DNA from: a virus
Taxonomy: Duplodnaviria > Heunggongvirae > Uroviricota > Caudoviricetes
Virus record (IMG/VR): IMGVR_UViG_3300028048_000105
Strand: one strand, 5' to 3'
Length of the DNA: 64,000 nt
Made by a program: the position numbers and the translations under genes. The notes beneath the pieces were generated by a model. It made no database searches, was not told the DNA's origin, and saw only the letters and a list, made by a program, of their open reading frames with translations. Numbering within the stretch: position 1 is the stretch's first letter; the number at the start of each line of letters is the position of its first letter. Positions 7,033 through 59,652 of this stretch are shown here, piece after piece.

Positions 7033-8088
7033 TCAGGATCTGTCAAGATCTTCCGTAAAATCAAGTTCCTCCCGTCCTGTTTCCTCAAGATTACTTAAAA
7101 GTGAATGCAATTCTTCACGTATCGATTCCCCGTTTTTCTGCAACTCAATCCCTTTTTCGATGCATTTCCTTTTGTAGTCACGTTCCTTGATTTCCCGTTT
7201 TAATCTTTCATTCTCCTCCTGCATCTGCTTAAGAATTTTTCTCTGTTCATTTTTCTCTCTATAAGCATCATCTCTCTGCTTCACCAGCTCTTCTGGAATT
7301 TTATTCTTTTCCTCATTTACAACCGATCCATCACCGCCATCCATAAAATCATCTTCCGCGGTCCGTCCGTCATCAAGGATTATATTTTTCATATATTCCT
7401 GTCTCTGGTTTACTTCCTTCGTAAGCTTCTCTGCATACCGGGAATTCTTTTTCAGATGTTCCGTACTCTGCCGCCTTGGGGTTTCCCCTGTGTTAAATCT
7501 TACGTGGTACTTTTCGTTGCACAGCTTTTCAACTGCCTGGTTCATTTTCAGGATATTGGTCAGGGAAGAGAAATCCTTGTTGCTTAATTTTCCATTTACC
7601 TCCGGAACAACCTGAATGTGAATGTGAGGTCTGGATACTTTAATCATTCCGTCTTTCGCATCCGTGTAAGGAGCGATCTCATCAAAGTGGCTTGTTGCGC
7701 TGATGATATTCTCATCCCCGAATTTTTCCCGGCACATATCGTAAAAATCTTGAAACAACTCCTTTGCTTTTTCATTTGTCATTCCAAGCGGTACCGGCAT
7801 TTCCAGACTTGTCATTTCAATCCGGTCATCCCTTTTGTTTGTATTTGTTGTTCTATCCAGTTCCGCAAGACGTTTTTCCCATTTTTCCCTTGATTCCTTC
7901 CATGACATTCCTGTGAAGTTTTGGTTTTGATATGACTTTGACGGATCAATCTCGATATTGCTGTGCTGCTTTGTTGGATCAGCTCGGAACGTCTGATCAC
8001 AATGTTTTAAAAGATTTACTCCGCGGATATGATCTTTTTTGCTGCATTTTGCACTTCCGTGATTGCCGCCCCAGTTAACTGAAGACAT
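7033..8088 (-). CDS. mob: MobV-family relaxase (plasmid recombination/mobilization protein, Mob_Pre)
   Basis: SHFDE...RPHIHIQVVP..NGKLS motif like pMV158 MobM HxDE/HxH; coiled-coil C-terminus. Confidence 0.75.
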   Translation of the reverse strand: MSSVNWGGNHGSAKCSKKDHIRGVNLLKHCDQTFRADPTKQHSNIEIDPSKSYQNQNFTGMSWKESREKWEKRLAELDRTTNTNKRDDRIEMTSLEMPVPLGMTNEKAKELFQDFYDMCREKFGDENIISATSHFDEIAPYTDAKDGMIKVSRPHIHIQVVPEVNGKLSNKDFSSLTNILKMNQAVEKLCNEKYHVRFNTGETPRRQSTEHLKKNSRYAEKLTKEVNQRQEYMKNIILDDGRTAEDDFMDGGDGSVVNEEKNKIPEELVKQRDDAYREKNEQRKILKQMQEENERLKREIKERDYKRKCIEKGIELQKNGESIREELHSLLSNLEETGREELDFTEDLDRS

Positions 8089-8179
8089 ATTTTATTCTCC
8101 CTCCTTACCCCTGCAACCACAATATGAAATAAAAAAAAGTTTGCGACAGGACTTTGGCAAAGTATTAGGTGCTATAGGA

Positions 8180-8800
8180 CTTTGCCCCCAGTACTTTCTT
8201 GCTTTCTCGCCTTCTTGCTTTCCTCCCAATCCTCCACCCACACCTCTCATCTGCCATCTGCTCCACGGAACCCTGTTTCCACATCATCCTTCCTTTCTCA
8301 CATCTCACCCCACATTTATCCCCTCTTTTCTTCCACGAAGTCTTTCTTGCGCTCTTGCGTTTTCACGTTTTTACGTTTTAACACTCTTGCACTCTTGTGT
8401 TCACTCTGCCCGCGCTCCGCCCAGTACTTCCTGCACAATAAGTCCGCGCTAACCTCACACTGCACCACAGTCCACTTACCCGCGCTCAGTTATAAAACCA
8501 CCGTACATAAGTCCGCGCCCACACCACTCCACGCATCAAGAAGTTTATGGAACTATCCTCCACTTTCCCCCCTATATTTCCATCTTTTTCCCCACCTCTA
8601 TACATTTTCACACCGTACAGATAAAGTATTCCCTCCACTTTGGCATATTTCTCGCATTCTTGCATTCTCGCGTTCTGCCTGCAATCCACGCCCTCACACC
8701 TCACATCTGCTACCCACACTACAGGTTCCCTGCCCGCATTTTTTTCTTGCATTCTCGCGTTGTTCCCTTGTGCTGTACTCACGCTCTGTACGCCATGCAT
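8180..8800 (+). repeat. Polypyrimidine (C/T-rich) tract with short TCTTGC / CTTGCATTCTCGCGTT repeats
   Basis: Plus strand is almost purine-free over about 600 bp; repeated CTTGCATTCTCGCGTT at about 8655, 8740, 8960, 9365. Confidence 0.6.
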
Positions 8801-8819
8801 CGCGCTACGGAAACATACC

Positions 8820-10085
8820 ACCTTAGTGATACTATTTTACACATTCCAAGGTGGTTTCCCAGTACCATCCCTGATCTTCCTATGTCCTCCTGTATTTCCG
8901 GTACCAGTAACGGTATCACCTTACGGATACTAAATGATACCACCTTGGTGATACTATTTCTTGCATTCTTGCATTCTTGTGTTCTCGCGCCCCACACGTT
9001 TTGTCCGTACTGTCTTCTTGCACGTCCTTATGAACTTTTACGGTATTCTTTCTTACCTTTCCCTTTTCCTTCCCGCATTCACCCTTCTGCGGCGCCACAC
9101 AAGCACATTTGTACTGTATATGCGCCGCAAAGCATCAGTGTCTGTAGTATCATAAAGCGGTCTGGCCGGCTCTGCCCGGAATAAAAGCACCAGATGACCG
9201 CCGGGATACCCTGCTTCTTCCTTGTCTCTCCCACGTACTCCACACGTTTTCTCTGTCCTCTACCATGTATCATATCAGTAAGGTGATACTTTTGTTTTCT
9301 TTTTACTTCCCATCCCCTCCCCCTTATGTTCAAGGTGTATCCCTGTTTTGTCCTGTTATTCCTGCTTTCTCGCGTTCTTGCGGTAAGATTTGTATCAGTA
9401 AGGTGATACTACATAGTACCAACAAGATGATACAAAATGGATTGCCACGGTCGTTTCTGTATTCAGTACCATAAAGGTGATACTATTTAGTATCAGTAAG
9501 TTGATACTTTTGAACATAAAAAATACTCCCACCATCCCCTGCCTACCGCTTCCTATACTTATTTCACAGGCTTGCGCGGAACCAGGCGCGGAACCAGGGA
9601 GAAAATGGGAAAGAAAAAGAATACCATACGGGTGATACTACTTAGTATCAATAAGGTGATACTGTTTAATATCAGCAAGTTGATACGAAAGTGACAGGAT
9701 CTGTATGTTTTCATTTATTTAGTATCATACGTGTGATACTATATAGTACCAATAAGGTGATACTATCTAATACCACAAAGGTGATACTATTTGGACAGAT
9801 TTGTAAAGGAACAGTAGTATCACCCGGTTTTCTTGTATTTCCTATGCTTCTTCCCCAACCCTTACGGTATTTGCCTAACCCCCTCGAATTCGATGGGTTT
9901 AAAATAGTATCACTGAAAAATAGTATCAGTAGCAATCTGTCTTTATCCGGATATTTCCTTATCGGTATGTGGGAGCTGGTTTACTGAAACTATTTTTGAG
10001 ATGATACTATTTTCTGTTCTTCTAGTGATGCCATTTTTGTTGTTTTTCTTTACTCCGGCCTGCTTTACTGATACTATTTTCCACC
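8820..10085. repeat. Iteron array: about 20 copies of GGTGATACTA(T) in both orientations (candidate replication origin / Rep-binding region)
   Basis: Copies at about 8826, 8946, 9283, 9401, 9425, 9471, 9495, 9641, 9664, 9690, 9738, 9762, 9786, 9820, 9905, 9925, 9997, 10066; many form TAGTATCA..TGATACTA inverted pairs. Confidence 0.6.
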
Positions 10086-10191
10086 GAAAGGCTGCTCTCC
10101 TGCTGTACTCTTCTGGGGCTTTGGAAAGCTGGTATTGGAAAATTCTGCGTTGTTTTCTTAACAGAAGGGTTTTCTGTACGGAAGCTGGTTT

Positions 10192-10221
10192 CTAACTGAT
10201 CTGCACGCGAAGACGCGGCAG
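10192..10221 (+). repeat. IS200/IS605-type subterminal hairpin (LE), CTAACTGATCTGCACGCGAAGACGCGGCAG
   Basis: Imperfect palindrome CTGCACGCG-AAGA-CGCGGCAG; identical copy at 13284-13312 and inverted copy at 12652-12681. Confidence 0.55.
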
Positions 10222-10338
10222 AGGAAAGCGCCACCTACACCTACACTTCTTTTTATATCCATACATTCATTTCTTAAATATTTATAAATTCCCATTTTTA
10301 TAGTTTATAAACAATAGATTCAGTAGTATAATTCTATT

Positions 10339-10761
10339 ATGGAAAATAAAAGAGAAAACAATAAAAGTTATGAATATCATTCATCATCCCATTTAAAATA
10401 TTTATGCCGTTATCATGTGATCTTCTGTCCGAAATACAGAAGAAAGATCTTAGTTAATGGTATTGACGAACGGCTGAAAGAAGTGTTTACAGAAACAGCC
10501 AAAGAACACGACTTCAGCATCATAGAGATGGAAGTCATGCCGGATCATGTACATCTGCTTATTGACTGCAACCCCAGATATGGGATCATGCAGTGTATTA
10601 CAGACCTCAAGTATGGATCTGCACATGTACTCGGGCGGGAATTCCCGTCCATCCGGAAAAAGATCCCTTCCATTTGGACACGCAGCTGTTTTGTAGCAAC
10701 CGTAGGAAGTGTTTCCTTTGATGTTGTAAAACAGTACATAGAATCACAGAAAGGAAAATAA
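10339..10761 (+). CDS. tnpA: IS200/IS605 family transposase TnpA (Y1 HUH)
   Basis: HVHLLIDCNPRYG HuH motif; 140 aa; typical N-terminal YHV..P KYRR. Confidence 0.85.
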   Translation: MENKRENNKSYEYHSSSHLKYLCRYHVIFCPKYRRKILVNGIDERLKEVFTETAKEHDFSIIEMEVMPDHVHLLIDCNPRYGIMQCITDLKYGSAHVLGREFPSIRKKIPSIWTRSCFVATVGSVSFDVVKQYIESQKGK

Positions 10762-10764
10762 ACC

Positions 10765-12321
10765 ATGCCGAGTTACTGTCTCGAATTAAAGTTAAAAGTG
10801 AAGAAAGACTCCGACAGGAATTACCTACAGAACTACTTTAATGCGGTGGCAAAGCTCGGTAATGAAATACGCAGGTTCGCAATCAGACAACTCGGGCATC
10901 TGAAACAGGACAGGAACTACAATTCCCTGCTTGCGGAGTACGTAAAAGTCAAAGGGGACGAAGATTCCCCGGAGCGCGAACGTCTGTCAAAAGAACTGTC
11001 TGTCATCGTAGGTTCCTACGGGCTTACAAAGTACGGACTTCAGAAATCAGCCTGTGAAATGCGTAAACATCTGAAATACGTGCATTCTGATGTTTACCAG
11101 AAACTCAGTGACAGTATCTGGCGAAGCGTAGAGAAATACCTTTACGGCAACGGAAAACAGATCCACTTCAAGAAGTGGGATGATGTCATGAGTTTTGAAA
11201 ACAAGAAGAACTCCACCGGCATCATTTATGCGGATGGAAAGGTATACATCAACTGTACGCCAAAGAGACCCAAATGCGGGATTGCCCTTGACATCATCCT
11301 CCCGCGCAACAAAGAATCCGCCCACTACATGTATGAAACCACATGTCTTACTGACAGGACGAAATACTGCCGGATCGTAAGGAAGATGTTTCCATCCGGA
11401 TGGCGGTATTACGTACAGCTGGTACAGGAAGGGATTCCTCCGCAGAAACATGAGATCGGGAAAGGGCGCGTCGGTATTGATATCGGTACATCCACAATCG
11501 CTGCGGTATCAAAAGATGGCTGCATCCTCGAAGAACTTGGGGAGCCTGCTTCCTCTCCTGCTGAAGAATGCCTGCTCCAGCGGAAGCTTGACCGGAGCCG
11601 CCGTTCTATGAATCCGAACAATTACAAGGAGGATGGCTCCGTAAAGAAAGGCAAAAAGACCTGGAAGAAATCAAAAACTTACCAGGCTGTCCAGAACCGG
11701 CTGAAATCCCTCCGGAGACAGAAGGCTGCCCGCCTGAAACAATGGCAGGAAGCCGAAGCGAATAAGATCGCCGCAATGGGAAACAAGGTCTTTGTGGAAA
11801 CGATGGATTTTAAAGCTTTGCAGAAGCGTGCAAAAAATACCGAGCGACAGGAACAAACGTCCCTTGTAAAACAGAAGGATGGAACGGAAAAGGAAGTACA
11901 TAAATACAGGAAGAAGAAACGATTTGGCAGTTCCATCGGAATGCATGCCCCCGCTCAGTTCTTATCCATACTGGAACGGAAGCTGGCATACCACAAAGGC
12001 GGGCTTTGCAGAATCAATACCTGGAAATTCAAAGCCAGCCAATACAACCATGTGGATGACACCTATGAGAAGAAGAAGCTCTCAAAACGTTACAACACCA
12101 TAGACGGCCGGTGGGTGCAGCGTGACCTCTATAGTGCATTCCTGCTGATGTGTTCGGATGATACACTTGAACACGCAGACCGGAAACGGTGTACCAGAAA
12201 CTATAAACGTTTCCTTAAAAACCACGATGCCTGCATCAATGAAATCCTCGCAGATATCCAAAAGAACCAAAAGAAAGTCCCATCCTGTTTCGGAATCAAT
12301 GCAAAAATGGCTGCCCTCTAG
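10765..12321 (+). CDS. tnpB: TnpB-like RuvC nuclease (IS605 OrfB family) apparently lacking the zinc-finger
   Basis: RuvC-I GIDIGTSTIAAV, RuvC-II VFVETMDF, RuvC-III-like WVQRDLYSAFLL; no CxxC pairs between II and III; 518 aa. Confidence 0.65.
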   Translation: MPSYCLELKLKVKKDSDRNYLQNYFNAVAKLGNEIRRFAIRQLGHLKQDRNYNSLLAEYVKVKGDEDSPERERLSKELSVIVGSYGLTKYGLQKSACEMRKHLKYVHSDVYQKLSDSIWRSVEKYLYGNGKQIHFKKWDDVMSFENKKNSTGIIYADGKVYINCTPKRPKCGIALDIILPRNKESAHYMYETTCLTDRTKYCRIVRKMFPSGWRYYVQLVQEGIPPQKHEIGKGRVGIDIGTSTIAAVSKDGCILEELGEPASSPAEECLLQRKLDRSRRSMNPNNYKEDGSVKKGKKTWKKSKTYQAVQNRLKSLRRQKAARLKQWQEAEANKIAAMGNKVFVETMDFKALQKRAKNTERQEQTSLVKQKDGTEKEVHKYRKKKRFGSSIGMHAPAQFLSILERKLAYHKGGLCRINTWKFKASQYNHVDDTYEKKKLSKRYNTIDGRWVQRDLYSAFLLMCSDDTLEHADRKRCTRNYKRFLKNHDACINEILADIQKNQKKVPSCFGINAKMAAL

Positions 12322-12700
12322 GACAGCCATAGATACAAATGTAACTTTAAACAAACACTGATATAACCTTATAAATATAGATATACGGGATCAAACTGAG
12401 TCCCTGGGCCGCATCCTGAGCTGAGTACACAGCTGTTCTCCTGATGCATAAACCGCTTTGCCGGGAGGCCCTGAAAGTTAATCCCTTCTGTAGTACGCAG
12501 GAGTGGCTGCAGCAGCAACACCGCTGTGGAGATCATCCATAAGACTACAACAAAAAGTGCGTATCGTCATCATAGGCTGACGGAGGTTCCCAAAGGGAAA
12601 ATCCAGATGTCCGGCGTACGTTTCTCAAGTGATGTCTTCTGGACCTTAAACCTGCCGCGTCTTCGCGTGCAGATCAGTTAGCTCGAAACAAAGTCATCAC
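12322..12700 (+). ncRNA. Candidate TnpB ωRNA / structured right-end region
   Basis: GC-rich, no credible ORF, ends in inverted copy of the 30-bp hairpin (12652-12681); position 3' of tnpB as expected for ωRNA. Confidence 0.3.
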
Positions 12701-13430
12701 GCAAAGTAGTATCACTTCCTGGGACGGGACTGCGTTTTTTTGGGAAACAGTACTACTAAAACAGTACCACCCGCACGAAGCAGGAAACAGAGTAAAGAGC
12801 GGAGGCAAAAAGTATGGCAGGCAGCGGGGCAGAAACCCATAGGAAAATTGGGCGGAAAGTAAGAAAAACAGGATACGCGCCCCGTGCCCCGCGCCAGACG
12901 GCTTCAAAAATCGTACCACCCGCGCTTCCATTCTGTACAATTTCCCGCACAGGAAACTATGAAAGAAGCCGTGCGGCGCACAACAAAAAACCGTGGATCT
13001 GTAATTTTTATGAGAAAATGGAGGAAAATTTATATTTGATATGGATGGCAGTGAAGTCTCACACAACCAAGGTTGCGTGCTTCCATACCCGTTTTTCTGG
13101 GGCATGGACTCGCTGACTGAAGATACAGTGAACTGCGGACATCCGGTTCCCGGATGCGTTTTCGTGGAAGCTGAGGCAGAAGCTGGTAAACAGAAGCGAA
13201 GCACCATTGGATACCACAACACCTGATGCGCAACCGCGTGGTTGCATTCCCAATGTCGGGTCCACCCGATCAGGCATCCATCGCTAACTGATCTGCACGC
13301 GAAGACGCGGCATCTTCCAGCTTAGTTTTTCGTGACAAAAAGGGCGCAGCTCCGGCCGTGTCTTTTTTTGTTCCATATTAAAGATGTAAATAAAGATGTA
13401 AATAAAAACATATCTGAAAGGAGAAAATGC

Positions 13431-13628: not shown

Positions 13629-13747
13629 TCCGGATAAAATCCATCACACTTACAAAATGAACTTATGGCACAGCTTTGGCTGTGTCTTTTTTTTGTTTCA
13701 TATTGAAGATGTAAACCGATTTTTTAAACATCGAAAGGAGAAAAACC

Positions 13748-25965: not shown

Positions 25966-26838
25966 CTACCACTGGCACTTAATGGTGCTGGCATCCGCAA
26001 GTTCATCGGATGAAAACAGAAGGTAAATGTTGGACAGAATATCCGCATATTTTTTCTTATCAAAATCGGAGTTGACCTGGCGGTCCACCAGATTTCTCAG
26101 TTTATCCGAAAACTCTTCTGACAACTGGACATTTCTGACTGTTTTCACTTCACCAACAGAAGAGTCGATCAGAAGAAGATATAACGGGACTTCGTCTTTT
26201 GCCGTAAAGTCGAAATCCGACAAATCTTTTGCAAGTTTTGCATGGTACGGCGCATCCATCCATGACAGGTCACCGGCTTTTACAGTAAACAGACCGGTTC
26301 CGTTCATCTCCGTAAAACGGATTTCCAGTCTGGAATCCGGGGAAAACTGTGCAATCTCATTTTCTGTGGGATTCCTGAAAAATACACGGATCTGCACGTA
26401 ATCCTTAACGATATCAACAACTACTGCTTCTGCATGGTTTGCAAATTCCGGATAGCATTTCCCTTGCTTGTAAGGAAACTCTCCGGATACTGCTTTCTCT
26501 GTCTCACTGGCATCTGCAGAAATTATTGATGTCTCATAATATTCTTCCGGAATACGCACTCCCAGCTTCTCACTGTATGGAACCTGGCATATTACATGGT
26601 CTTTGTACAGCCGGTATCCATTCTTAAGAACATATGCCACCGGAACCGGGCACTCGTAGTCATCCAGTTTGTCCCCTTCTCCTTCTGCTTTCTCCAACGT
26701 ATGTTCCGGTACAGCCATGATGACATGACCGGTTTCTCCATCACTCACAAAATAGTTAAATTCTCTCAGTTCTTCCGGAAGCCCCGGATAATTATCTCTT
26801 TTTGCAAAATTTCCATAATCCCTTACGCTATCTCTCAT
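25966..26838 (-). CDS. hypothetical protein
   Basis: 290 aa ORF. Confidence 0.5.
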   Translation of the reverse strand: MRDSVRDYGNFAKRDNYPGLPEELREFNYFVSDGETGHVIMAVPEHTLEKAEGEGDKLDDYECPVPVAYVLKNGYRLYKDHVICQVPYSEKLGVRIPEEYYETSIISADASETEKAVSGEFPYKQGKCYPEFANHAEAVVVDIVKDYVQIRVFFRNPTENEIAQFSPDSRLEIRFTEMNGTGLFTVKAGDLSWMDAPYHAKLAKDLSDFDFTAKDEVPLYLLLIDSSVGEVKTVRNVQLSEEFSDKLRNLVDRQVNSDFDKKKYADILSNIYLLFSSDELADASTIKCQW

Positions 26839-27161
26839 TCTCTTGCCTTCTCCTTGAATATATCTTTTATACTTTTAGTATACCACAGGTTCGGCTACGT
26901 GTACACCTCCGCGTTTCAACTCTTACACCCTACAGGTCTCAACTCTTAATCCATGTATCCAACAGCGGCAAGCACTTCGCGATACGGTGTTTCCATGGTT
27001 TTTGTGCTGCCCCACTGCGAAAGCCTGCCGTTCAAACCTGTATTGTACGGTCTTACTGCCTCGCCTCGTACCCGCAGATCATATTGGTTCCCCGCAGAAA
27101 TGCAAGCCCCTCATGGCAGGCAAGTAGATCGTGCTGGTAGTCCTCATCCTTAACCCGGTAC

Positions 27162-27698
27162 TCATCGAACAATTCCTTGTATTTTTTCCACCCCAGAGGC
27201 CATTTCTGTATTCCGGGCATCATGGCAGACGTTCTTCCTAACGAGGACAATATGAGAAATATGCTCCTCATCCGCTCTCAAAACGGCATCTGAAGCGGCA
27301 ACGTCATAGTTTAAGTTGAAGGTGCAGAAAGCGTTCTTCCCCTTAAACTTATCCAGCTCAAAGGTCGCAATATTTGCTCTGACGAAGCCTCCGTTCACGG
27401 CCAGCCAGTCGATCTTGTGCATCCGTATATGTTCTGCAACATACACTACTTCTTTTTCCATTACTTTCCATCCTATGCTTAAAAAAAAGAACATCCGGGG
27501 AACGATCCCGGAATAGCCTGTGGCTATGCACCTGCTGTCCCACAGCCTCTCCATACAATGTACGCGATGCATGGAAAAGGCATGATAAATATGAAAGGAG
27601 TATTCCTGTGCGCCGATAGTTCCCACGCCAACGCACGCTGCTGTTAATCTGGCGGTTATCGTTATTTTTGGTTCAGCGGGAAATCCCACAGGCCGCAT
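27162..27698 (-). CDS. hypothetical protein (true start probably internal, about 27467)
   Basis: ORF follows module A + tRNA-like leader. Confidence 0.35.
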   Translation of the reverse strand: MRPVGFPAEPKITITARLTAACVGVGTIGAQEYSFHIYHAFSMHRVHCMERLWDSRCIATGYSGIVPRMFFFLSIGWKVMEKEVVYVAEHIRMHKIDWLAVNGGFVRANIATFELDKFKGKNAFCTFNLNYDVAASDAVLRADEEHISHIVLVRKNVCHDARNTEMASGVEKIQGIVR

Positions 27699-27735
27699 CC
27701 GGCTGAATTTGAGAAGACCGTATGAGGCAGTTGAA

Positions 27736-27882
27736 AGGGATATCCGGGAGTCGGACCCGGAAACAGCTTACGCTGCGTCCTCACTATCCCTTTTCCGGGT
27801 ATTGCCCGGAAGCGTAAACAAATATCGAAAGGATTTCTGCCAGCCGGTAACCCTGGCAGCTCGGTTTATGGCCTTTATATGA
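27736..27882 (-). ncRNA. tRNA-like structured leader element, copy 1
   Basis: minus strand: hairpins CTGCCAGCCGGTAACCCTGGCAG, CTTCCGGG-CAAU-ACCCGGAA, CAGC-GUAA-GCUG, T-arm mimic CCGGGUCCGACUCCCGG + acceptor-like GGGAUAG/AUAUCCC. Confidence 0.45.
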
Positions 27883-27883
27883 T

Positions 27884-27915
27884 ACATATTGCGCCATATG
27901 GGGATTCGTCAAGGG
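27884..27915 (-). promoter_or_regulatory. Module A promoter copy
   Basis: ATATTGCGCCAT..ATTCGTCAAG. Confidence 0.45.
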
Positions 27916-27966
27916 AATTTTGAAAGTTTTTGAAAAAATTTTGTTTCATGTTAAATGTGACTTTAG

Positions 27967-27996
27967 TTTCAACCCATGCACCGCATAGGGTACAAC
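27967..27996 (-). CRISPR. Solo CRISPR repeat (TTTCAACCCATGCACCGCATAGGGTACAAC), degenerate stem
   Basis: Immediately 3' of stop codon of 27996..28358 gene; preceded on plus strand by a module B variant TTTCATGTTAAATGTGAC. Confidence 0.45.
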
Positions 27997-28358
27997 TATT
28001 TTCTCTCAACTACATTGAACTTCTTTGTTTTCTCAAATCGCGGCATTTCATTCTCATGGTAATCCGCGGATACATTACAGAGCATATCCCGAAGATTAAT
28101 CCAGTTAATCTTAATCACAGTCATCTCGACCGCTTTTGAACCATCGGAAACCAGTATTTTCTCTCCAAATTTGATTACCGGCGTTTCCACATCTGCATCC
28201 ATACGGAAAGTTAACTCTGTCCGGACCATTTTCCCTCTTGGTTCTTCCTCGTAATGCAGGCAGTTCCTTACGTTCTCAAAACAGCGACCTCCCTGCGAAA
28301 AGTGTTTTTTGCAGGTCAAACATTCCATTTCGTGTTTCCTCCTTCTTTCATAACACAT
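27996..28358 (-). CDS. hypothetical protein
   Basis: 120 aa; module A variant promoter at 28355-28386. Confidence 0.5.
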   Translation of the reverse strand: MCYERRRKHEMECLTCKKHFSQGGRCFENVRNCLHYEEEPRGKMVRTELTFRMDADVETPVIKFGEKILVSDGSKAVEMTVIKINWINLRDMLCNVSADYHENEMPRFEKTKKFNVVERK

Positions 28359-29265: not shown

Positions 29266-29677
29266 AATTGATTAAAATGAAAGGAAAAGAAAACCATGTT
29301 AAAGATAATGAGTTGTAAAAATTTTAATAATGATTATAGAACATATGGCGATTTCAGCAATATGTTTACTTTCTCATGCTCAAAATCAGGAAAAACATGG
29401 GGACAGAACGATTACTATACACCTTCCCGCAGTCGATTTCGATTTTAAACCAGGCACTTAAAACCGAAATATTGCAAAGCGCAGATGGCCGCGGAGAGAA
29501 GAAATTTCTTGATGCGGCTTTTTTATTGTTGAAAAAGTCATGGACAGGTAGCTGAGATGGATTAGCGAGGGACTGAAAATCCTTACAGGGTGGATCATTA
29601 CCACTCCTGTCCACTCCGCAGCGATGCGGTAAAAAACTGAATGGATAAGAGAAAACAGGCACTTCTTTTATCCGTAT

Positions 29678-29749
29678 GCATGTGAAGTGTTGTTGGCGGC
29701 ACACCTGCCTTCCAAGCAGGACGGGCGGGTTCGAGACCCGTCACATGCT
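29678..29749 (+). tRNA. tRNA-Gly (anticodon TCC)
   Basis: Manual fold: acceptor GCATGTG/CACATGC, anticodon loop CTTCCAA, T-arm GCGGG-TTCGAGA-CCCGT. Confidence 0.65.
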
Positions 29750-29750
29750 C

Positions 29751-29822
29751 TGATCCGTAGCTCAATGGTAGAGCACCCGGCTGTTAACCGGGGCGTTGAG
29801 GGTTCGAGTCCCTCCGGATCAG
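29751..29822 (+). tRNA. tRNA-Asn (GTT)
   Basis: acceptor TGATCCG/CGGATCA, D-arm TAGCTCAATGGTAGAGC, anticodon loop CTGTTAA, T-loop TTCGAGT. Confidence 0.75.
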
Positions 29823-29827
29823 CTCAT

Positions 29828-29909
29828 GCGTTGGTAGTCCAGCGGCGAAGACAGCTGACTGTAAATCAGCCACAAAGAAACACCGGAGGTTCGAGTCCTC
29901 CCCAGCGCA
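29828..29909 (+). tRNA. tRNA-Tyr (GTA), long variable arm
   Basis: anticodon loop CTGTAAA, long variable arm, T-arm GGAGG-TTCGAGT-CCTCC. Confidence 0.7.
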
Positions 29910-29913
29910 CTAT

Positions 29914-29986
29914 ACTTCCGAGGACAAACAGCAGAGTCACCGCCCTGTCACGGCGGAGATAGCGGGGTCAGCACCCGTCGGAAGTG
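29914..29986 (+). tRNA. noncanonical tRNA-like, anticodon GTC (Asp); possible pseudogene
   Basis: Good acceptor (ACTTCCG/CGGAAGT) and anticodon arm (CCGCC-CTGTCAC-GGCGG) but D-loop lacks GG and T-loop is GTCAGCA. Confidence 0.4.
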
Positions 29987-29991
29987 TTCCT

Positions 29992-30064
29992 GCTCCTGTA
30001 GCACAACTGGCAGTGCATCTGATTTGTAATCAGAAGGTTTCCGGTTCGAAGCCGGACGGGAGCT
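29992..30064 (+). tRNA. tRNA-Thr (TGT)
   Basis: anticodon loop TTTGTAA, T-arm TCCGG-TTCGAAG-CCGGA, acceptor GCTCCTG/CGGGAGC (one G-U). Confidence 0.7.
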
Positions 30065-30068
30065 TTAT

Positions 30069-30140
30069 GGATCTGTAGTATAAAGGCTATTACACCCGGC
30101 TGTCTACCGGAAAACGAGGGTTCGATTCCCTCCTGATCCG
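30069..30140 (+). tRNA. tRNA-like, anticodon GTC (Asp) with several stem mismatches
   Basis: canonical T-arm GAGGG-TTCGATT-CCCTC; acceptor with one mismatch; anticodon loop CTGTCTA. Confidence 0.45.
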
Positions 30141-30145
30141 CTCAT

Positions 30146-30219
30146 GTGCCTGTAGCTCAGTTGGCAGAGCACGCGACTTTTAATCGCGGTGGCGTCGGGT
30201 TCAAGTCCCACCAGGCACA
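30146..30219 (+). tRNA. tRNA-Lys (TTT)
   Basis: D-arm TAGCTCAGTTGGCAGAGCA, anticodon loop CTTTTAA, acceptor GTGCCTG/CAGGCAC. Confidence 0.7.
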
Positions 30220-30462
30220 CTAAATATTGAAAAATTCAAGGAAAGGAAGGAAAAACAATGATGACAACAGAAATGAGACAGTGTCCACAGAGAAGTATCA
30301 GTCAGCCGCAGTCATGCAGCTGGCGCAGTTGTCGTGCTCGTAAATACCGTCTCAAATTGAAAGAAATGTGGTCATTGCCTGGGAATTTCTGGGAAAATGT
30401 TGGAAATACTTAAGAAAACGGGGCATACATCTTTCGATTGAGAGGTGTGTGCCTTTATTTTT

Positions 30463-30545
30463 GCTGTACTGGCTCAACCGGAAAAGCAGCGGTCTTAAAA
30501 CCGCCATTCCGAAAGGATATTAGGGTTCGAATCCCTGGCACAGCG
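30463..30545 (+). tRNA. tRNA-Leu (TAA), class II
   Basis: anticodon loop CTTAAAA, long variable arm, T-arm TAGGG-TTCGAAT-CCCTG. Confidence 0.65.
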
Positions 30546-30576
30546 CTCTCCTCCCTTATCAGGGGAACCCATATAT

Positions 30577-30648
30577 GGCATCATAGCCAAACGGCTAAGG
30601 CGTCCGGTTGCAACCCGGAAGGTGAGGGTTCGATTCCCTCCGATGCCT
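30577..30648 (+). tRNA. tRNA-Cys (GCA)
   Basis: anticodon loop TTGCAAC, T-arm GAGGG-TTCGATT-CCCTC. Confidence 0.65.
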
Positions 30649-30653
30649 CTTAT

Positions 30654-30743
30654 GCAGACATATAAAGGTAACTGGTACCCCTCCACACTGCTAATGTGGC
30701 ATGCGGCACAACCGCTGTCCGGGTTCGAACCCCGGTGTCTGCG
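30654..30743 (+). tRNA. tRNA-Ser (GCT), long variable arm
   Basis: acceptor GCAGACA/TGTCTGC, anticodon loop CTGCTAA, T-arm CCGGG-TTCGAAC-CCCGG. Confidence 0.7.
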
Positions 30744-30749
30744 CTATAT

Positions 30750-30817
30750 ACACCTGTCTGATGGACAGAAAGTGGTCTCCAAAACCGCCAACGAGGGTTC
30801 GATTCCTTCCGGGTGTG
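30750..30817 (+). tRNA. noncanonical tRNA-like, anticodon CCA (Trp), shortened D-arm
   Basis: anticodon loop CTCCAAA, T-arm GAGGG-TTCGATT-CCTTC; only 68 nt. Confidence 0.4.
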
Positions 30818-30902
30818 CTCCTTTGTTCTCTTTGCTCACGGGCACGAATCGTGTGGGCGACGCCAGACTTTTCTGTAATTTCATTTAAAAAAGGGATATC
30901 CG

Positions 30903-33188: not shown

Positions 33189-34722
33189 CTACGCAACAAA
33201 TACAAGCCCCTCGTTGTGTCTTATGATCCGGCATTTCTTTGCCGGGTAGTTTGTTTTCTTATCACCATACACACGAAGATACTGACCGTTTGACAACTGC
33301 CCGGACAATACATGGTATTCACCCATGTATTCGAACAGGGCACCAGGCATCAGACGGTCCGGATTGTTGTAACGTCTTGTGCTCTTCTCAACGGTCAGCT
33401 GCGACCGCATCCGGTCTGCCTCTTTCCGGCCATGACATTTAACCTGTTCTTCATACCAGCCGGAAAGTGACGGGCACTTTTGTTCAAACCGCGGTCTGCG
33501 GTTCTTTGCAATGATCTTTCCATTGAGTCTGTATGTCCTCTCCCTCTGGTTATTGATAATTGCACGGTCATGTCTCCGGAACTGTACGATTTTATGTACA
33601 TAGGTAAACCCCGGGGCTGCCGCCGGTATCAAACCGGCACCAAGGCAGGCAATGCAGAAAGCATCTGCTTCGTGCATTTGGTTATCCTTTGTCTTTTCAT
33701 AGCCAAGGGACTGTCTTGCCATGGAAGTATCCCTGCCTGTGCAGGCATTCAGGTGTTCCGTGTCGACATGTTCTGAAAGGCTGCTCCAAATATACGGGAT
33801 TGCCTGGTTTAACACACTTAAGGCACCGTACTTTTTCAGGATACCGGCTTTCAGTTTCTCAAGCCGTGCTTTTGCATCAGGACTGGTATGTACCTTTCCG
33901 TGACAGCATTCACACAGCCCGGCGATGTTCTTTAAGGTATTGGAGCCGCCCTGTGACCGTGGCACGATATGATGGAAATGTCCGATATCGTTTCCACACA
34001 GAAGACATTTGCCGTGCTGCTGGTCATAAACTGCAGCATTGACATCCCCGTAGCCTTTCAGCGGTCCGTTCTGGAAATCAATGCCGGAAGTTTCCGGATC
34101 ATCCATTAATGCAAATGCAAAACGGTTGACTTCCAATGTCACATCCGTGACCGGAAGAAACTTCTGGATTTTTTTAATCACGTTAACATGGGTTTTCACA
34201 AGCTGTCCTGCGCTCGGGGTGAGCCATCCGGCTTCCCTTACCCGGTTGCAGAACCGTGCCTGTGTATTCCGGATAATCCTGCATGTGACGAACTTATCTG
34301 CAGCGTACTGTGGAAGTTTCCGCATGACCATGCCGGCTTTCAGCATGGTGCCAAAACGTCTGGCAAGCCGTTGGCGTGCCTTGCGTTCGCCATTGCGTGA
34401 CGCCCGGCGGTGTGCCCGGCGCTCATCGACCAGCTTTTTGATGTCCTTGTTGCGGGTTTCCACAACTGCCGAGAATACAGGTTCCGCATTTTCGTTGACC
34501 ACGCTTACGCCGATGTTGGTGCGTCCCGGGTCAATGCCTGCCATAAGTGGCTGCAGAACCGGCTCATTCTCATAAAGCAGCTGTATGGTGTAAGGAATGC
34601 GGCAGGCAATCCTTGCCTTACCAGCATCAAGCAGCTTTTTGATATATCTTTTCCTTTTTGTCGGCATCTGCGGTTTCCCGTCCCTGCCAAGCACATATAT
34701 GTAGTCTGTATCCGGCATGTGA
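33189..34722 (-). CDS. iscB: IscB (OMEGA RuvC-HNH RNA-guided nuclease)
   Basis: PLMP-like N-term, RuvC-I GIDPGRTNIGVSV, Arg-rich bridge helix, HNH CLLCG..HHIVPRSQGG..N..LCECCH; start at M-PDTDYIYVL with AAGGAGGG RBS (ORF-track 34919 start is an extension through the ωRNA). Confidence 0.85.
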
Positions 34723-34995
34723 TGCCCTCCTTTTTGTTTCATTAAATGTTGCGTGCAGTACCGCCGTCCAGCGTATCGGACAGCACCGGTTGTAAACCTG
34801 TGCACACCTTGTCGTACTGTTTCCCTAAGCTGGGTGGACACTCTGCATTGTGCCGGACTGGGAAAATCCGGCAGTGCCTGCCTTGTGACACGTATCCATC
34901 CATGCTTCTGCTCAACCACCAGTCAGACTGGATGATTCAGCAGCTCCGAAGAACCGCTTCCTCATGCTCGGTTATTCAATTGCCGAGTTTGGTTG
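34723..34995 (-). ncRNA. candidate IscB ωRNA #1
   Basis: about 270 nt structured noncoding region immediately 5' of iscB, beginning at the element-end hairpin; by analogy with described IscB ωRNAs. Confidence 0.5.
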
Positions 34996-38849: not shown

Positions 38850-41153
38850 TTATCCCAATTCTTCTATTTTTTCGAACGGGACACAACATTTAATTTCTCT
38901 GGATGAAGTGTCCTTTAGTTTTAATACAACACTCATGATTGTATTTGGATTAAAATAAATTTTTTCCCCATATTTTATAAGGTCTACGTTACGATCTACA
39001 AGCGTTTTTAATATAGTAATATATACACTTGCCTCTTCTGCTCCCATTCCTATATAAGGAATTTTTTTATCAACAGCCACTCCTCTGGTTTTTAATTTAT
39101 CTTTTAAATTACCAAGAAATTTTATCTGCGCATCGCTTGCTGTTTTTTTTGAACTAAAAACAGCAATATTAACTGTAATCGCCCCATTTTCGAGCATTTC
39201 TTCTTCCAAAGGCTTTTGTTCCTTTAATTTCTCTTCGTCTTTTTTCTTTTTTTCTACCAAAGCAAAGATTTTTGACTGGAATTCTCCAAACTCACTACGT
39301 CCCTGCTCTTTTGCCCTCAGTTCCTTTTCGAGTGTCTCCTTAAACATTTTCTTTTTCTTATCAATTGTTTTATCCTGCATTCTTGGTGTAATAAGCATCA
39401 TTTTCCCCTCTGCCTTCATCTTCGAAATACGAGAGGCAAGATCAATTAGTCTGGATGCTTGAAGTTTGTTAATATCGCCTTTGTAAAACCCGTCATACTC
39501 ATGCATTAGACGTCCAATTTGATTTTCAGTCGCTTTTATTTTCCCCCATTCATCTTGTAATGCCACGTCCCAGGAATATTTCATATAATCTGGAGATATC
39601 ATACAAAAATCATGAACAAATGAAATTGCATCCTGCATTTTCATTTCACCGATATAATATTTCCCGACACTAGCAGTAAGATCAAACGTAACTGTTGTAT
39701 TTCCCATAACATCTGGATCAGCAAGGTAAATATAGTCATTCCATGTAGGTTTGATACAATAACGATGTTCCGTATCCGGCATAAGTGAGTAGTCCATTCC
39801 AAGGAAATCATAATCATTTTGGAATTCATCCATTTTCTTTGAATTATATTTATCTACTGCATGCGCAAGGTCGCTTAAATCTGCATGTGGTTTTTTCCGC
39901 GCAGAAGATATAATTTCTTCCTGCTCCTGCACAAAGCGATTAACCTGCTCCAACCGATATTCATACGCCTTTGTAAGTTCTGCAAATCGTCCTGCAATTT
40001 CATCGCTAATCTCAAGCGGATCAATCTCACCTTCAAGCATTCGAGACTGTTTCTTTCCAAGAAGTTTTGCATCTATACCAAAAAGAGTAAGAGCTGTACA
40101 CAGATTTCTTGTCCCGCTGCCATCATCTGGAAGAATATCAATGCATAAACAGTTTTCCTTACCTTCATAGAGCCGGGTTCCTCTTCCGATGATCTGCTGA
40201 TACAAAGACGCGTTGCACGTCGGCCGGAAGTTGATAATGGTATCCGCAATAGGAAGATCTGTACCTTCTGTTAAAACCATGCAGTTAATAATGGCGCGGA
40301 CACTCCCGTTCATAAAACCATCAAGCATATTTTTTCTATCTTCTTCCTGTGTTTTCCCTGATAAAACAGCAACACTGCCACGTTCTTTTTCCGGGAGCAG
40401 TTTGTCAACTACTGCCTTCAGGAAATTACAGGTTCTGACAGTAGTACAATAAATAAGAATATGCCGATTCTCCTGGAGACAGTCTGTAAGAACTTTTGCA
40501 ACACTTATTACAGCTTCTTCCGTAATACAACCGTCCAAATCGGATACATTAAAATCCCCCATAGATTTTTTTACGCCTTTCAGGGAATATTTTGCACGGA
40601 CCTCCCGGCAGTGCACCGGACTTAAATATTTATTTTTAATCCCCCAACGAAGATCCTTTGCATAAATAATCTCGTTAAAAACGTCATCTAACCGTACGTT
40701 GTCGCCACGCTTCGGAGTTGCCGTGACACCGATCACACGCTTAGCGCCGGAAAAGTAATTTAAGATCTTCTTATAGGATGGCGCGGCAGCGTGGTGCGCC
40801 TCATCAATGATGATCGTGTGGAAATCGTCCGGCTTATACTGCTTAAGACGGGAGTCATGGCTGAGTGTCTGAACACTCGCAGATACTACCTCTTCCCCAT
40901 TGGAATGGTTTTCTGCCTTTTCTACGCCAAAACTACAGTCGAAATACCGTCTCGGCTGGTTGACCAGTTCATCCCTGTGTGAAAGAATAAGCACCCTTCC
41001 GTATCTCTTAAAGTGGGAGAAGATCCATGTCTTCCCAAGCCCTGTTGCAAGAGCAATCAGGAATCTTCCTTCTTTTAAGCTATCTACCTTATCAATGCAT
41101 TCCTGCTGGTATGGTCTTGATTTTTTCTCTGCTATCTTCTTATTCTGATTCAT
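38850..41153 (-). CDS. SF2 DEAD/DEAH-box helicase family protein (res-subunit-like N-terminus) with long unknown C-terminal region
   Basis: Walker A ATGLGKT, DEAHH box, helicase C motifs QIIGRGTR; 767 aa. Confidence 0.7.
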   Translation of the reverse strand: MNQNKKIAEKKSRPYQQECIDKVDSLKEGRFLIALATGLGKTWIFSHFKRYGRVLILSHRDELVNQPRRYFDCSFGVEKAENHSNGEEVVSASVQTLSHDSRLKQYKPDDFHTIIIDEAHHAAAPSYKKILNYFSGAKRVIGVTATPKRGDNVRLDDVFNEIIYAKDLRWGIKNKYLSPVHCREVRAKYSLKGVKKSMGDFNVSDLDGCITEEAVISVAKVLTDCLQENRHILIYCTTVRTCNFLKAVVDKLLPEKERGSVAVLSGKTQEEDRKNMLDGFMNGSVRAIINCMVLTEGTDLPIADTIINFRPTCNASLYQQIIGRGTRLYEGKENCLCIDILPDDGSGTRNLCTALTLFGIDAKLLGKKQSRMLEGEIDPLEISDEIAGRFAELTKAYEYRLEQVNRFVQEQEEIISSARKKPHADLSDLAHAVDKYNSKKMDEFQNDYDFLGMDYSLMPDTEHRYCIKPTWNDYIYLADPDVMGNTTVTFDLTASVGKYYIGEMKMQDAISFVHDFCMISPDYMKYSWDVALQDEWGKIKATENQIGRLMHEYDGFYKGDINKLQASRLIDLASRISKMKAEGKMMLITPRMQDKTIDKKKKMFKETLEKELRAKEQGRSEFGEFQSKIFALVEKKKKDEEKLKEQKPLEEEMLENGAITVNIAVFSSKKTASDAQIKFLGNLKDKLKTRGVAVDKKIPYIGMGAEEASVYITILKTLVDRNVDLIKYGEKIYFNPNTIMSVVLKLKDTSSREIKCCVPFEKIEELG

Positions 41154-58983: not shown

Positions 58984-59205
58984 TAGTTACTCCTTTATAT
59001 TAAATGTTATTTTCAACCACTTTTTGAGGAAACACCCCTATTAAAATATATCACACATACACGTACGTTTCAACCACTTTTTGAGGAAACACTACTTATA
59101 TTATGGTAATAAAAATAGCCAGGTAGAACAATGTCTACCTGACTATATGCTTTTGATATTTCAACCACAGAGGGTTATATATTTTGCTTATTCAGATATA
59201 GGTTT

Positions 59206-59652
59206 TCAACCACTTTTTGCGGTTAGCCTTTCTTCCATTGTATCACCTGGAACCATTCCGTATCCAACATCCTTACTGAAAGCTTTGTAATACTGTCCGA
59301 TACATTCACACAGCTTCTCAAAATTTTCAACACGGCATTTCTTCCCATCGTTAGCGAAATCATACTGTAATTCGTTACATTGATTACTTGCATTGACATA
59401 CTCTTCCGCAATCATATACATTTCCTTTAATTTCTTTGAAGCAAACCCGGCTTTGAAGACACCATGGTAAAATACCAGTACAGGTCCTGCAACCAACAGA
59501 ACAATTCCTACAAGATACAAAAATCCAAGCCCAATAACAAGAAACTCATATCCAACTGCCTGAAAATATTCAGCTGCTCCAGCCCCGGTCTTTCCGACAC
59601 TCGTCATCGCCTCCGTCGCATGCTGCAACAAATCAAGATACTTGTTTAACAT
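59206..59652 (-). CDS. membrane protein, hypothetical
   Basis: 148 aa with central hydrophobic helices. Confidence 0.4.
   Translation of the reverse strand: MLNKYLDLLQHATEAMTSVGKTGAGAAEYFQAVGYEFLVIGLGFLYLVGIVLLVAGPVLVFYHGVFKAGFASKKLKEMYMIAEEYVNASNQCNELQYDFANDGKKCRVENFEKLCECIGQYYKAFSKDVGYGMVPGDTMEERLTAKSG

What the first reader, a model, noticed from the sequence alone, without database searches (positions are those of the whole stretch)
10192..13312. IS200/IS605 TnpA + zinc-finger-less TnpB-like nuclease, three copies of a 30-bp hairpin (one inverted) and a 1-kb structured noncoding tail
TnpB-like ORF (518 aa) has RuvC-I/II/III-like motifs but no CxxC...CxxC between RuvC-II and III. The 30-mer CTAACTGATCTGCACGCGAAGACGCGGCAG occurs at 10192 (before tnpA), as a reverse complement at 12652, and again forward at 13284. 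The segment 12322-13312 is GC-rich and non-coding. Either the ωRNA/right end is unusually long, or a second hairpin-bounded MITE-like derivative is nested at the right end.
Basis: seen in the sequence. Interest (0 to 1): 0.55.

Follow-up and report, generated by a model that had tools for sequence, protein, structure and literature searches.

The report
IS200/IS605 copy with damaged left end

Summary
The sequence observation is confirmed: the 30-mer occurs three times against 0 expected, tnpA is a Y1 transposase, and the 518-aa ORF has a TnpB/Cas12f fold with no CxxC pairs.

- **Element limits.** Other copies at 11 sites and six IS-free "empty-site" contigs show the IS is 10222-12681. It inserted after TCAC and ends in TTAG.
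- **Flank.** 12682-13283 is backbone, 96% identical in IS-free contigs. It is not an IS tail.
- **The outer 30-mers.** The copies at 10192 and 13284 belong to two single-hairpin "solo" derivatives, oppositely oriented. Each consists of the left arm, the hairpin and the right tail. Both predate the insertion.
- **Left end.** The window copy then lost 93 nt of host DNA, the 19-nt left arm and one hairpin, so it lacks its left cleavage site.
- **Real structured tail.** It is 12389-12681, a covariation-supported omega-RNA-like scaffold (94% paired; 23 of 42 pairs compensatory).
- **Protein family.** It is a discrete zinc-finger-less clade of about 3,900 clusters at 50% identity. It falls under Pfam and NCBIfam cut-offs and keeps an invariant D-E-D triad.

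This is a new member of a known kind, of modest interest.

The parts
10192..10221 (-). Remnant of solo element Y: right-end tail CTAACTGAT (reverse complement of ATCAGTTAG, 10192-10200) plus the 21-nt hairpin (10201-10221). It is host-resident and predates the IS.
   Evidence: Six IS-free contigs (L007, L032, L049, L064, L040, L054) have this 30-mer followed by CTCCCAACTTAGTTTTCTTGTGA, which completes a solo element.
10222..12681 (+). The IS200/IS605-family copy itself (2460 bp). It lacks the canonical left end: the TCAC cleavage/target site, the 19-nt arm AAAAAAACTAAGCTGGAAG and the left hairpin.
   Evidence: Homology with the 97%-identical copy in a different context (L001) runs over about 10222-12682 only. 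The canonical left end is seen in 17 copies. The right end stops at TTAG with 11 distinct flanks.
10339..10761 (+). tnpA, a Y1 (HUH) single-strand transposase of 140 aa.
   Evidence: Pfam Y1_Tnp 5.6e-39; NCBIfam transpos_IS200 at 140.7 bits against a cut-off of 55. The HVH motif and a C-terminal Tyr are visible in the translation.
10765..12321 (+). Zinc-finger-less TnpB-like RuvC protein, 518 aa.
   Evidence: AF2 model with pLDDT 90. Foldseek hits Cas12p 1.6e-12, ISFba1 TnpB 2.2e-12, Cas12f, and ISDra2 TnpB about 1e-10. D239, E345 and D454 are invariant. No CxxC in 0 of 239 homologs. Pfam OrfB_IS605 scores only 15.6 bits, below the 30.5 cut-off.
12389..12681 (+). Omega-RNA (reRNA)-like structured scaffold. 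A closing helix pairs 12394-12399 (AACTGA) with 12674-12679 (TCAGTT), and there are two lineage-specific expansions at 12419-12440 and 12497-12539.
   Evidence: In alignment A2 of 10 elements, 42 pairs are 94.3% paired against 27-39% when slid. 23 pairs carry compensatory changes against at most 8 when slid, and 0 of 500 shuffles reach this. No Rfam family matches.
12652..12681 (+). Right end: TnpA-binding imperfect hairpin CTGCCGCGTCTTCGCGTGCAG (12652-12672) plus tail ATCAGTTAG. Cleavage is predicted after TTAG at 12681.
   Evidence: Identical in all copies with variable DNA after TTAG. The hairpin stem covaries between related IS species and matches each element's own left hairpin.
12682..12701 (+). 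Predicted guide portion of the omega-RNA, i.e. the first 20 nt of flank (CTCGAAACAAAGTCATCACG). The guide length is assumed.
   Evidence: In IS-free contigs this sequence lies directly after TCAC (AGTATCAC|CTCGAAAC...), which is TAM plus target as the TnpB homing model requires. Guide use is inferred, not shown.
12682..13283 (.). Backbone flank of the host replicon, not part of the IS.
   Evidence: 96% identical and contiguous in IS-free contigs. It folds no better than shuffles, z = -0.78.
13284..13335 (-). Solo element X: right tail, hairpin and 18-nt left arm (13284-13331), followed by GTGA, the reverse complement of the TCAC target (13332-13335).
   Evidence: The same element with the same flanks is present in IS-free contigs. 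The same element type (TCAC, then arm, hairpin, ATCAGTTAG) occurs at about 12 distinct sites.

Best explanation
The window holds one copy (10222-12681) of a multicopy IS200/IS605-family insertion sequence from gut Lachnospiraceae.

**Canonical element.** Read on the top strand it is:
- the target TCAC, then
- a 19-nt arm, AAAAAAACTAAGCTGGAAG;
- the hairpin CTGCCGCGTCTTCGCGTGCAG;
- tnpA, a Y1 transposase;
- tnpB-like, a RuvC nuclease without the C4 zinc finger;
- a 215-290-nt structured RNA scaffold;
- the same hairpin again;
- the tail ATCAGTTAG, then flank.

**Predicted mechanism (inferred).** TnpA should excise and insert the top strand 3' of TCAC, using the IS608-type guide/cleavage-site geometry. 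The TnpB-like protein, loaded with an RNA made of the scaffold plus flank-derived guide, should cut IS-free alleles at TCAC plus guide match, so that the element is copied back.

**History of this copy.**
1. The IS inserted canonically after AGTATCAC and before CTCGAAAC. That site lay 70 nt from an older, oppositely oriented 48-49-nt solo relic of the same IS.
2. The solo and the new left end formed a 44-nt inverted repeat.
3. A deletion with GCAG microhomology at the hairpin feet removed 93 nt of host DNA, the 19-nt left arm and one hairpin.
4. The solo's hairpin now abuts the IS interior, giving the misleading appearance of 30-bp terminal inverted repeats.

The copy keeps intact tnpA, tnpB and scaffold. 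It lacks its left cleavage site, so it is predicted to be unable to excise. The third 30-mer (13284) is a second pre-existing solo relic. Solos are best explained as collapse of full copies by recombination between the two identical 21-nt direct-repeat hairpins.
For: **Shown**
- **Boundaries.** They come from 11 right flanks and at least 4 left flanks.
- **Empty sites.** Six contigs show TCAC|CTCGAAAC, the two solos, and the 93 nt that is missing in the window.
- **Target conservation.** TCAC precedes the left end in 9 related IS species, and the left and right hairpins covary within each.
- **Geometry.** TCAC lies 19 nt 5' of the left hairpin foot and TTAG ends 9 nt 3' of the right foot. IS608 has 19 and 10 nt (PMC3201880).
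- **Guide/cleavage code.** AAAC lies immediately 5' of the right hairpin and pairs with TTAG by the same rule as IS608 AAAG with TTAC.
- **Transposase.** tnpA passes the curated IS200 threshold.
- **Nuclease fold and triad.** TnpB/Cas12f fold with an invariant D-E-D triad.
- **tnpA linkage.** A Y1 tnpA lies directly upstream in 6 of the 7 relative loci where upstream sequence is available.
- **Scaffold.** Covariation supports the structure.
- **Solo collapse.** A full IS and a solo share the same right flank (L016 and L055).

**Inferred**
- RNA expression and guide use.
- Nuclease activity.
- The deletion mechanism.
- Immobility of this copy.
Against: - No transcript or activity data exist.
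- The canonical intermediate (an intact left end at this site) was not found in any contig. The two-step history is therefore a reconstruction from the empty site plus canonical copies elsewhere.
- The truncated junction was seen only in this contig's own assembly (the window and L005, which are the same record). A second contig was reported by the look-up but not shown.
- The covariance model of the scaffold finds nothing in family members at 30-40% identity. The RNA is documented only for the close clade, at 52% protein identity or more.
- The pairing of the left guide GAAG with TCAC rests on my memory of the IS608 right-end pair and was not verified in a paper.
Confidence: 0.8

Rival explanations
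1. One reading: the element runs to 13312, either with an unusually long (about 1 kb) omega-RNA or right end, or with a hairpin-bounded MITE (12652-13313) nested at its right end.
For: Two inverted 30-mers bracket a 600-nt segment for which no gene was supported.
Against: IS-free contigs carry 12682-13335 contiguously at 96% identity, including the 13284 hairpin. All other IS copies end at TTAG with unrelated flanks. 12682-13283 has no excess folding. The scaffold model stops at 12681.
Confidence: 0.03
2. 10192-12681 is a unit bounded by functional 30-bp terminal inverted repeats, for example an invertible or DDE-type mobile segment.
For: There is a perfect 30-bp inverted repeat at both edges (I5).
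Against: The left repeat is present in the empty site with no IS. 17 other copies have a direct-repeat hairpin arrangement instead. No invertase or DDE transposase is present. The arrangement is unique to this contig.
Confidence: 0.03
3. The single-hairpin solo elements are not collapse scars. They are mobile, REP-like mini-elements that TnpA spreads in trans, and the window's aberrant left junction arose from TnpA acting on a solo rather than from a replication or repair deletion.
For: About 12 solo sites against 11 full-IS sites. All solos are preceded by TCAC, and several occur per genome contig (OODT01000034.1). Each solo keeps the TCAC site, the GAAG guide and a hairpin, i.e. a complete left-end-like TnpA substrate.
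Against: A solo has only one hairpin and lacks the AAAC guide needed for cleavage at TTAG. TnpA falls well below the curated RAYT threshold, at 31.6 against 80 bits. One solo shares its site with a full copy. The deletion endpoints in the window lie at the hairpin feet, not at the TCAC or TTAG cleavage sites.
Confidence: 0.2
4. The zinc-finger-less TnpB-like protein is not a nuclease but a domesticated or regulatory RNA-guided binder, in the manner of TldR.
For: Loss of the zinc finger, sub-threshold Pfam score, and some family members without an adjacent tnpA (pXO1, L070, L153).
Against: The D-E-D triad is invariant across 26 sequences at 40-64% identity. The gene sits inside a recently mobile IS with tnpA. 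The scaffold ends exactly at the transposon boundary, as in active TnpB systems.
Confidence: 0.1

Closest known systems
IS608 (Helicobacter pylori) and ISDra2 (Deinococcus radiodurans), IS200/IS605 family, IS605 group (tnpA + tnpB)
   Same: - Y1 HUH transposase followed by tnpB.
- No terminal inverted repeats and no target duplication.
- Identical subterminal imperfect hairpins in direct orientation.
- Insertion 3' of a tetranucleotide that lies 19 nt 5' of the left hairpin foot.
- The right cleavage site lies 9-10 nt 3' of the right hairpin foot.
- A 4-nt guide sits 5' of the hairpin foot (AAAC for TTAG here; AAAG for TTAC in IS608, PMC3201880).
- A structured RNA ends at the right boundary.
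   Different: - The target is TCAC rather than TTAC or TTGAT.
- TnpB is larger (518 aa) and has no C4 zinc finger. It shares about 12% identity with solved TnpBs and is found only by fold.
- The scaffold RNA has no Rfam family, and its 5' end pairs with the right-end tail.
- The window copy has lost its left end.
Zinc-finger-less branches of the TnpB tree (Altae-Tran et al. 2023, PNAS, PMC10691335), e.g. RIIIr-4
   Same: [quoted passage not shown] It also notes that plasmid- and virus-borne branches exist.
   Different: RIIIr-4 is defined by replacement of the RuvC-III Asp by His and by MazE association. This family keeps an invariant Asp (QRDLYSAF) and is Y1-associated. I could not map it to a named branch.
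PATEs/MITEs of IS200/IS605 and REP elements with RAYT transposases
   Same: Short non-coding derivatives carrying TnpA-type hairpins, scattered in intergenic DNA next to a conserved tetranucleotide.
   Different: Solos here have a single hairpin flanked by the left arm and the right tail of one specific IS, so they look like a recombination product. From my own knowledge, PATEs keep both ends. TnpA here is a standard IS200 equivalog, not a RAYT (31.6 bits against an 80-bit cut-off).

Membership tests
IS200/IS605 family | Y1 HUH tyrosine transposase (TnpA) | tested here: met
   Pfam PF01797 at 5.6e-39; NCBIfam NF033573 at 140.7 bits against a cut-off of 55.
IS200/IS605 family | Subterminal imperfect hairpins at both ends in the same orientation, with no terminal inverted repeats | tested here: met
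   Met for the canonical element: the same 21-nt hairpin is at the left and right ends in 17 copies and in 8 related species, with covarying stems. Not met for the window copy itself, whose left hairpin was lost and replaced by an inverted solo hairpin.
IS200/IS605 family | Insertion 3' of a specific tetranucleotide without target-site duplication | tested here: met
   The empty site reads AGTATCAC|CTCGAAAC and the filled site reads ...TTAG|CTCGAAAC. TCAC precedes every left end and there is no duplication.
IS200/IS605 family | Cleavage sites read by 4-nt guides 5' of the hairpin feet, with IS608-like spacing | tested here: inconclusive
   Spacing of 19 nt and 9 nt matches IS608's 19 and 10. 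AAAC/TTAG fits the AAAG/TTAC rule by inspection. The GAAG/TCAC fit rests on memory. No biochemical test was possible.
TnpB (OMEGA RNA-guided nuclease) | RuvC fold with D-E-D triad and WED/REC-like N-terminus | tested here: met
   Foldseek probability 1.00 to ISFba1 and ISDra2 TnpB, Cas12f and Cas12p. D239, E345 and D454 are invariant.
TnpB (OMEGA RNA-guided nuclease) | Curated sequence models (Pfam OrfB_IS605 / OrfB_Zn_ribbon, NCBIfam TnpB) | tested here: not met
   PF01385 scores 15.6 bits against a cut-off of 30.5. No Zn-ribbon hit and no NCBIfam hit at E<=1. The family profile finds no TnpB or Cas12 sequence in the PDB. PHROG 506 'transposase' matches at 7.3e-31.
TnpB (OMEGA RNA-guided nuclease) | C4 zinc finger between RuvC-II and RuvC-III | tested here: not met
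   0 of 239 homologs have CxxC in the 60 residues before RuvC-III. The position reads ASQYNH...IDGxWVQRD.
TnpB (OMEGA RNA-guided nuclease) | Structured omega-RNA encoded at the 3' end, terminating at the right transposon boundary | tested here: met
   Covariation-supported structure ending at TTAG. Transcription was not tested.
TnpB (OMEGA RNA-guided nuclease) | RNA-guided, TAM-dependent DNA cleavage | not testable with these tools
   The only available support is the TCAC + guide-match arrangement of the empty site.
TnpB clade RIIIr-4 (PMC10691335) | RuvC-III Asp replaced by His; no zinc finger; MazE association | tested here: not met
   The zinc finger is absent, but Asp454 is invariant and the neighbour is Y1 tnpA, not MazE.
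REP/RAYT system | RAYT-type TnpA | tested here: not met
   NF047646 scores 31.6 bits against a cut-off of 80.

The most novel reading that the evidence does not exclude
The protein may represent a discrete, so far uncharacterised zinc-finger-less, Y1-linked TnpB clade. It has about 3,900 clusters at 50% identity, occurs in gut Lachnospiraceae and on plasmids of Bacillus (including B. anthracis pXO1), Clostridium and Finegoldia, and is mostly annotated 'hypothetical protein'. It has its own scaffold RNA, closed by pairing between its 5' end and the transposon's right tail, and a TCAC TAM. Its single-hairpin 48-49-nt relics might behave as REP-like elements that TnpA still recognises.
Probability: 0.3. 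Interest if true: 0.45.

Novelty: new member of a known kind. Interest (0 to 1): 0.3.

Why it matters
- **Annotation.** This is a clean worked example in which apparent 30-bp terminal inverted repeats and a '1-kb tail' dissolve once empty sites are compared.
- **An under-annotated TnpB clade.** It documents a large TnpB-fold family that Pfam, NCBIfam and PGAP miss. For that family it provides defined ends, a predicted TAM (TCAC) and a covariation-supported scaffold. That is enough to design a cleavage test of whether a TnpB can work without its zinc finger.
- **Transposon decay.** It shows how IS200/IS605 copies decay, into single-hairpin solos or by palindrome-provoked loss of the left end, while keeping their genes intact.

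Tried and rejected
- **Known RNA families.** Rfam at E-value and gathering thresholds gave nothing for the tail.
- **Single-sequence folding.** 12322-12702 (z = -0.91) and 12682-13283 (z = -0.78) were uninformative. Only comparative analysis showed structure.
- **DNA similarity.** Megablast of the element against phage and plasmid collections found no match. The hairpin scan of viral contigs found 0.
- **Protein against PDB sequences.** Neither the sequence nor the family profile hit any TnpB or Cas12; the link needed a fold search.
- **Fold library.** The afdb50 library was unavailable.
- **Scaffold model.** Covariance model R1 found no scaffold in members at 30-40% identity.
- **Inversion models.** I considered inversions, either between hairpins or of the whole interior, for the aberrant left end. 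They predict a left arm at one junction, which is not observed.
- **RIIIr-4 membership.** Rejected because the RuvC-III Asp is retained.
- **Branch naming.** The literature search did not give a named branch for this clade.
Full report
**1. Observation**

The 30-mer CTAACTGATCTGCACGCGAAGACGCGGCAG is at 10192 (+), 12652 (-) and 13284 (+, last base differs). Dinucleotide shuffles expect 0.00 matches. It contains an imperfect hairpin: CTGC-CGCG-loop-CGCG-bulge-GCAG.

- The ORF at 10339-10761 is an IS200-type Y1 transposase (Pfam 5.6e-39; NCBIfam equivalog at 140.7 bits against a cut-off of 55).
- The ORF at 10765-12321 (518 aa) scores only 15.6 bits on Pfam OrfB_IS605, below the 30.5 cut-off. It has no NCBIfam hit and no PDB sequence hit.

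**2. True limits of the element**

A 97%-identical protein (P0001) lies in a different context in L001-L004. DNA homology to the window is confined to about 10222-12682.

A metagenome scan with the hairpin returned 58 loci. Sorting the hairpin's flanks gave two classes.

- **Class A, the IS right end.** It reads ...GGACCTTAAAC-hairpin-ATCAGTTAG and is followed by 11 unrelated flanks. The element therefore ends at TTAG, window position 12681.
- **Class B, solo elements.** These are 48-49 nt and read TCAC|AAAAAAACTAAGCTGGAAG-hairpin-ATCAGTTAG, with variable DNA on both sides, at about 12 sites.

Extracting left ends showed that canonical copies begin TCAC|AAAAAAACTAAGCTGGAAG-CTGCCGCGTCTTCGCGTGCAG-AGGAAAG.... 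The same hairpin thus sits at both ends in direct orientation, as expected for IS200/IS605. Solos equal left arm + hairpin + right tail.

**3. The insertion site in the window**

Six contigs are IS-free versions of this locus: L007, L032, L049, L064, L040 and L054.

- They align at 96% to 9918-10221 and to 12682 onwards.
- Between those two blocks they carry 93 nt in place of the IS. This is CTCCCAACTTAGTTTTCTTGTGA (the rest of a minus-strand solo, Y) followed by 70 nt ending AGTATCAC.
- The right junction (TTAG|CTCGAAAC) and the empty site (TCAC|CTCGAAAC) are those of a canonical insertion after TCAC.
- The left junction is not canonical. The window lacks the 93 nt, the 19-nt left arm and one hairpin, and Y's inverted hairpin is fused to AGGAAAG.

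Y and the incoming left end would have formed a 44-nt inverted repeat with a 66-nt spacer. Both deletion endpoints end in GCAG. I infer a palindrome-provoked, microhomology-mediated deletion; the mechanism is not shown.

The 30-mer at 13284 belongs to a second solo, X (13284-13331, plus GTGA at 13332-13335), which is also present in the IS-free contigs. Hence 12682-13283 is backbone. It does not fold better than shuffles (z = -0.78), and its GC content (0.48-0.52) is unremarkable.

**4. TnpA substrate logic**

| Feature | This IS | IS608 (PMC3201880) |
|---|---|---|
| Left cleavage/target site | TCAC, 19 nt 5' of the left hairpin foot | TTAC, 19 nt 5' of the foot |
| Right cleavage site | TTAG, ending 9 nt 3' of the right hairpin foot | TCAA, 10 nt 3' of the foot |
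| 4 nt 5' of the hairpin foot | AAAC at the right end, GAAG at the left end | AAAG at the left end |

- AAAC matches TTAG by the same rule as IS608 AAAG with TTAC.
- GAAG paired with TCAC resembles IS608's right-end pair. That comparison is from my memory and was not verified in a paper.
- TCAC precedes the left end in nine related IS species.
- Each species' left and right hairpins match each other while differing between species: CGCG/CGCG, CACC/GGTG, CGCC/GGCG.
- The window copy lacks TCAC, GAAG and a correctly oriented left hairpin. It is therefore predicted to be unable to excise (inference).

**5. The protein**

- **Conserved residues.** A 26-sequence alignment (40-64% identity) has invariant D239 (GIDIGT), E345 (VYVExM) and R453-D454 (QRDLYSAFLL). 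It reads ASQYNH...G.WVQRD where TnpBs carry CxxC...CxxC. None of 239 homologs has a CxxC there.
- **Fold.** AlphaFold2 gave pLDDT 90 and pTM 0.81. Foldseek against the PDB returned Cas12p (1.6e-12), ISFba1 TnpB (2.2e-12), Cas12f, ISDra2 TnpB (about 1e-10), Cas12m and Fanzor2, all at about 10-13% identity.
- **Family size.** The family profile finds 3,880 50%-identity clusters at E<=1e-3 and 1,253 at E<=1e-30. It does not reach solved TnpBs by sequence.
- **Other library hits.** 15 of 26 members hit PF01385, best E = 3.7e-7. PHROG 506 'transposase' matches at 7.3e-31.
- **Distribution.** Relatives lie on 146 plasmid records, mainly Bacillus (98, including B. anthracis pXO1), Clostridium (19) and a few Finegoldia. 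They are mostly annotated 'hypothetical protein'.
- **tnpA linkage.** A Y1 tnpA sits immediately upstream in L065, L066, L069, L150, L154 and L156, but not in L153. L157 has no upstream sequence.

**6. The RNA**

The region from about 20-70 nt after the tnpB stop codon to TTAG is alignable across 10 elements.

- RNAalifold predicts 42 pairs in 8 helices.
- 94.3% of cells are paired, against 27-39% with slid partners.
- 23 pairs have double changes, against at most 8 when slid. 0 of 500 shuffles reach any measure.
- A closing helix pairs AACTGA (12394-12399) with TCAGTT of the right tail (12674-12679), with a compensatory change in L150.
- The last helix is the TnpA hairpin.
- The window and L001 version carries two expansions, 12419-12440 and 12497-12539.

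This is the expected anatomy of an omega-RNA/reRNA scaffold. Its guide would start at 12682, and the empty site offers TCAC plus exactly that sequence. Expression and cleavage are inferred. Model R1 detects only the close clade.

**7. Comparison with what is known, and verdict**

The element is an IS605-group member in every tested respect. Its TnpB belongs to the superfamily by fold and catalytic triad, but it fails the curated sequence models and lacks the zinc finger.

Loss of the zinc finger in 'some large TnpB branches' is already reported. The named zinc-finger-less clade RIIIr-4 differs, with RuvC-III Asp replaced by His (PMC10691335). I could not assign this family to a named branch.

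Solos are most simply explained as collapse products of recombination between the two 21-nt direct hairpins, and one solo shares its site with a full copy (L055 and L016). A REP-like mobile status is not excluded.

Overall this is an ordinary, decaying copy of a known kind of transposon, carrying a poorly annotated TnpB clade with well-defined, testable parameters.

Noticed in passing
window 8100-10100: Dense array of iteron-like repeats (GTGATACTA / TATCAnTAAGGTGATAC, often 24 nt apart, in both orientations) plus TTCTTGCATTCT repeats. It lies just downstream of a Mob_Pre-family gene (7033-8088, minus strand). The same AGTATCAC motif recurs at 12703-12716 and supplies the TCAC target the IS used. 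This looks like a replication-origin or partition region of a plasmid-like replicon.
   Followed up: partly
window 29542-30818: Cluster of 10 tRNA genes on the + strand (Phe, Gly, Asn, Tyr, Thr, Asp, Lys, Cys, Trp). One at 30463-30546 has an undetermined anticodon. It sits in a region otherwise coding on the minus strand.
   Followed up: no
window 13343-13390 and 13667-13715: Duplicated terminator-plus-promoter-like module (GGCxCAGCTxxGGCxGTGTCTTTTTTTGTTxCATATTxAAGATGTAAA) in front of successive small genes. Similar pieces occur elsewhere in the window and in L001/L002.
   Followed up: no
L001-L004, L014, L028, L037, L048 (left end): A subfamily of the IS has a 30-nt insert, CATGTGGTACATTTTCAATGTATCACAATT, directly after the left hairpin, replacing the last two stem bases. 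The insert itself contains TCAC.
   Followed up: no
window 10765-12321, residues about 356-385: The window's TnpB-like protein has a long beta-hairpin insertion after RuvC-II (QEQTSLVKQKDGTEKEVHKYRKKK). Only a few family members (P0060, P0081, P0119) share it.
   Followed up: no
L033, L038: L033 joins the left flank of one solo site (the L030/L042 type) to the right flank of another (the L006 type), suggesting recombination between solos. L038 has two solos 1.66 kb apart with near-identical flanks, i.e. a segmental duplication.
   Followed up: no
L159 (B. anthracis pXO1, 26782-28278 in NZ_CP029806.1); L070; L153: Family members occur without an adjacent tnpA (IS1341-like). The conserved pXO1 copy is annotated as a hypothetical protein and lies next to a site-specific integrase.
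   Followed up: no
window 33189-34919, 38850-41153, 50288-53668, 56926-61899: The surrounding replicon encodes an HNH endonuclease, two large helicase-like proteins and DNA methyltransferases (PHROG hits), plus RecJ and Mob_Pre. No capsid or terminase genes turned up among the ten proteins checked. It is probably a plasmid-like or phage-plasmid-like element.
   Followed up: partly
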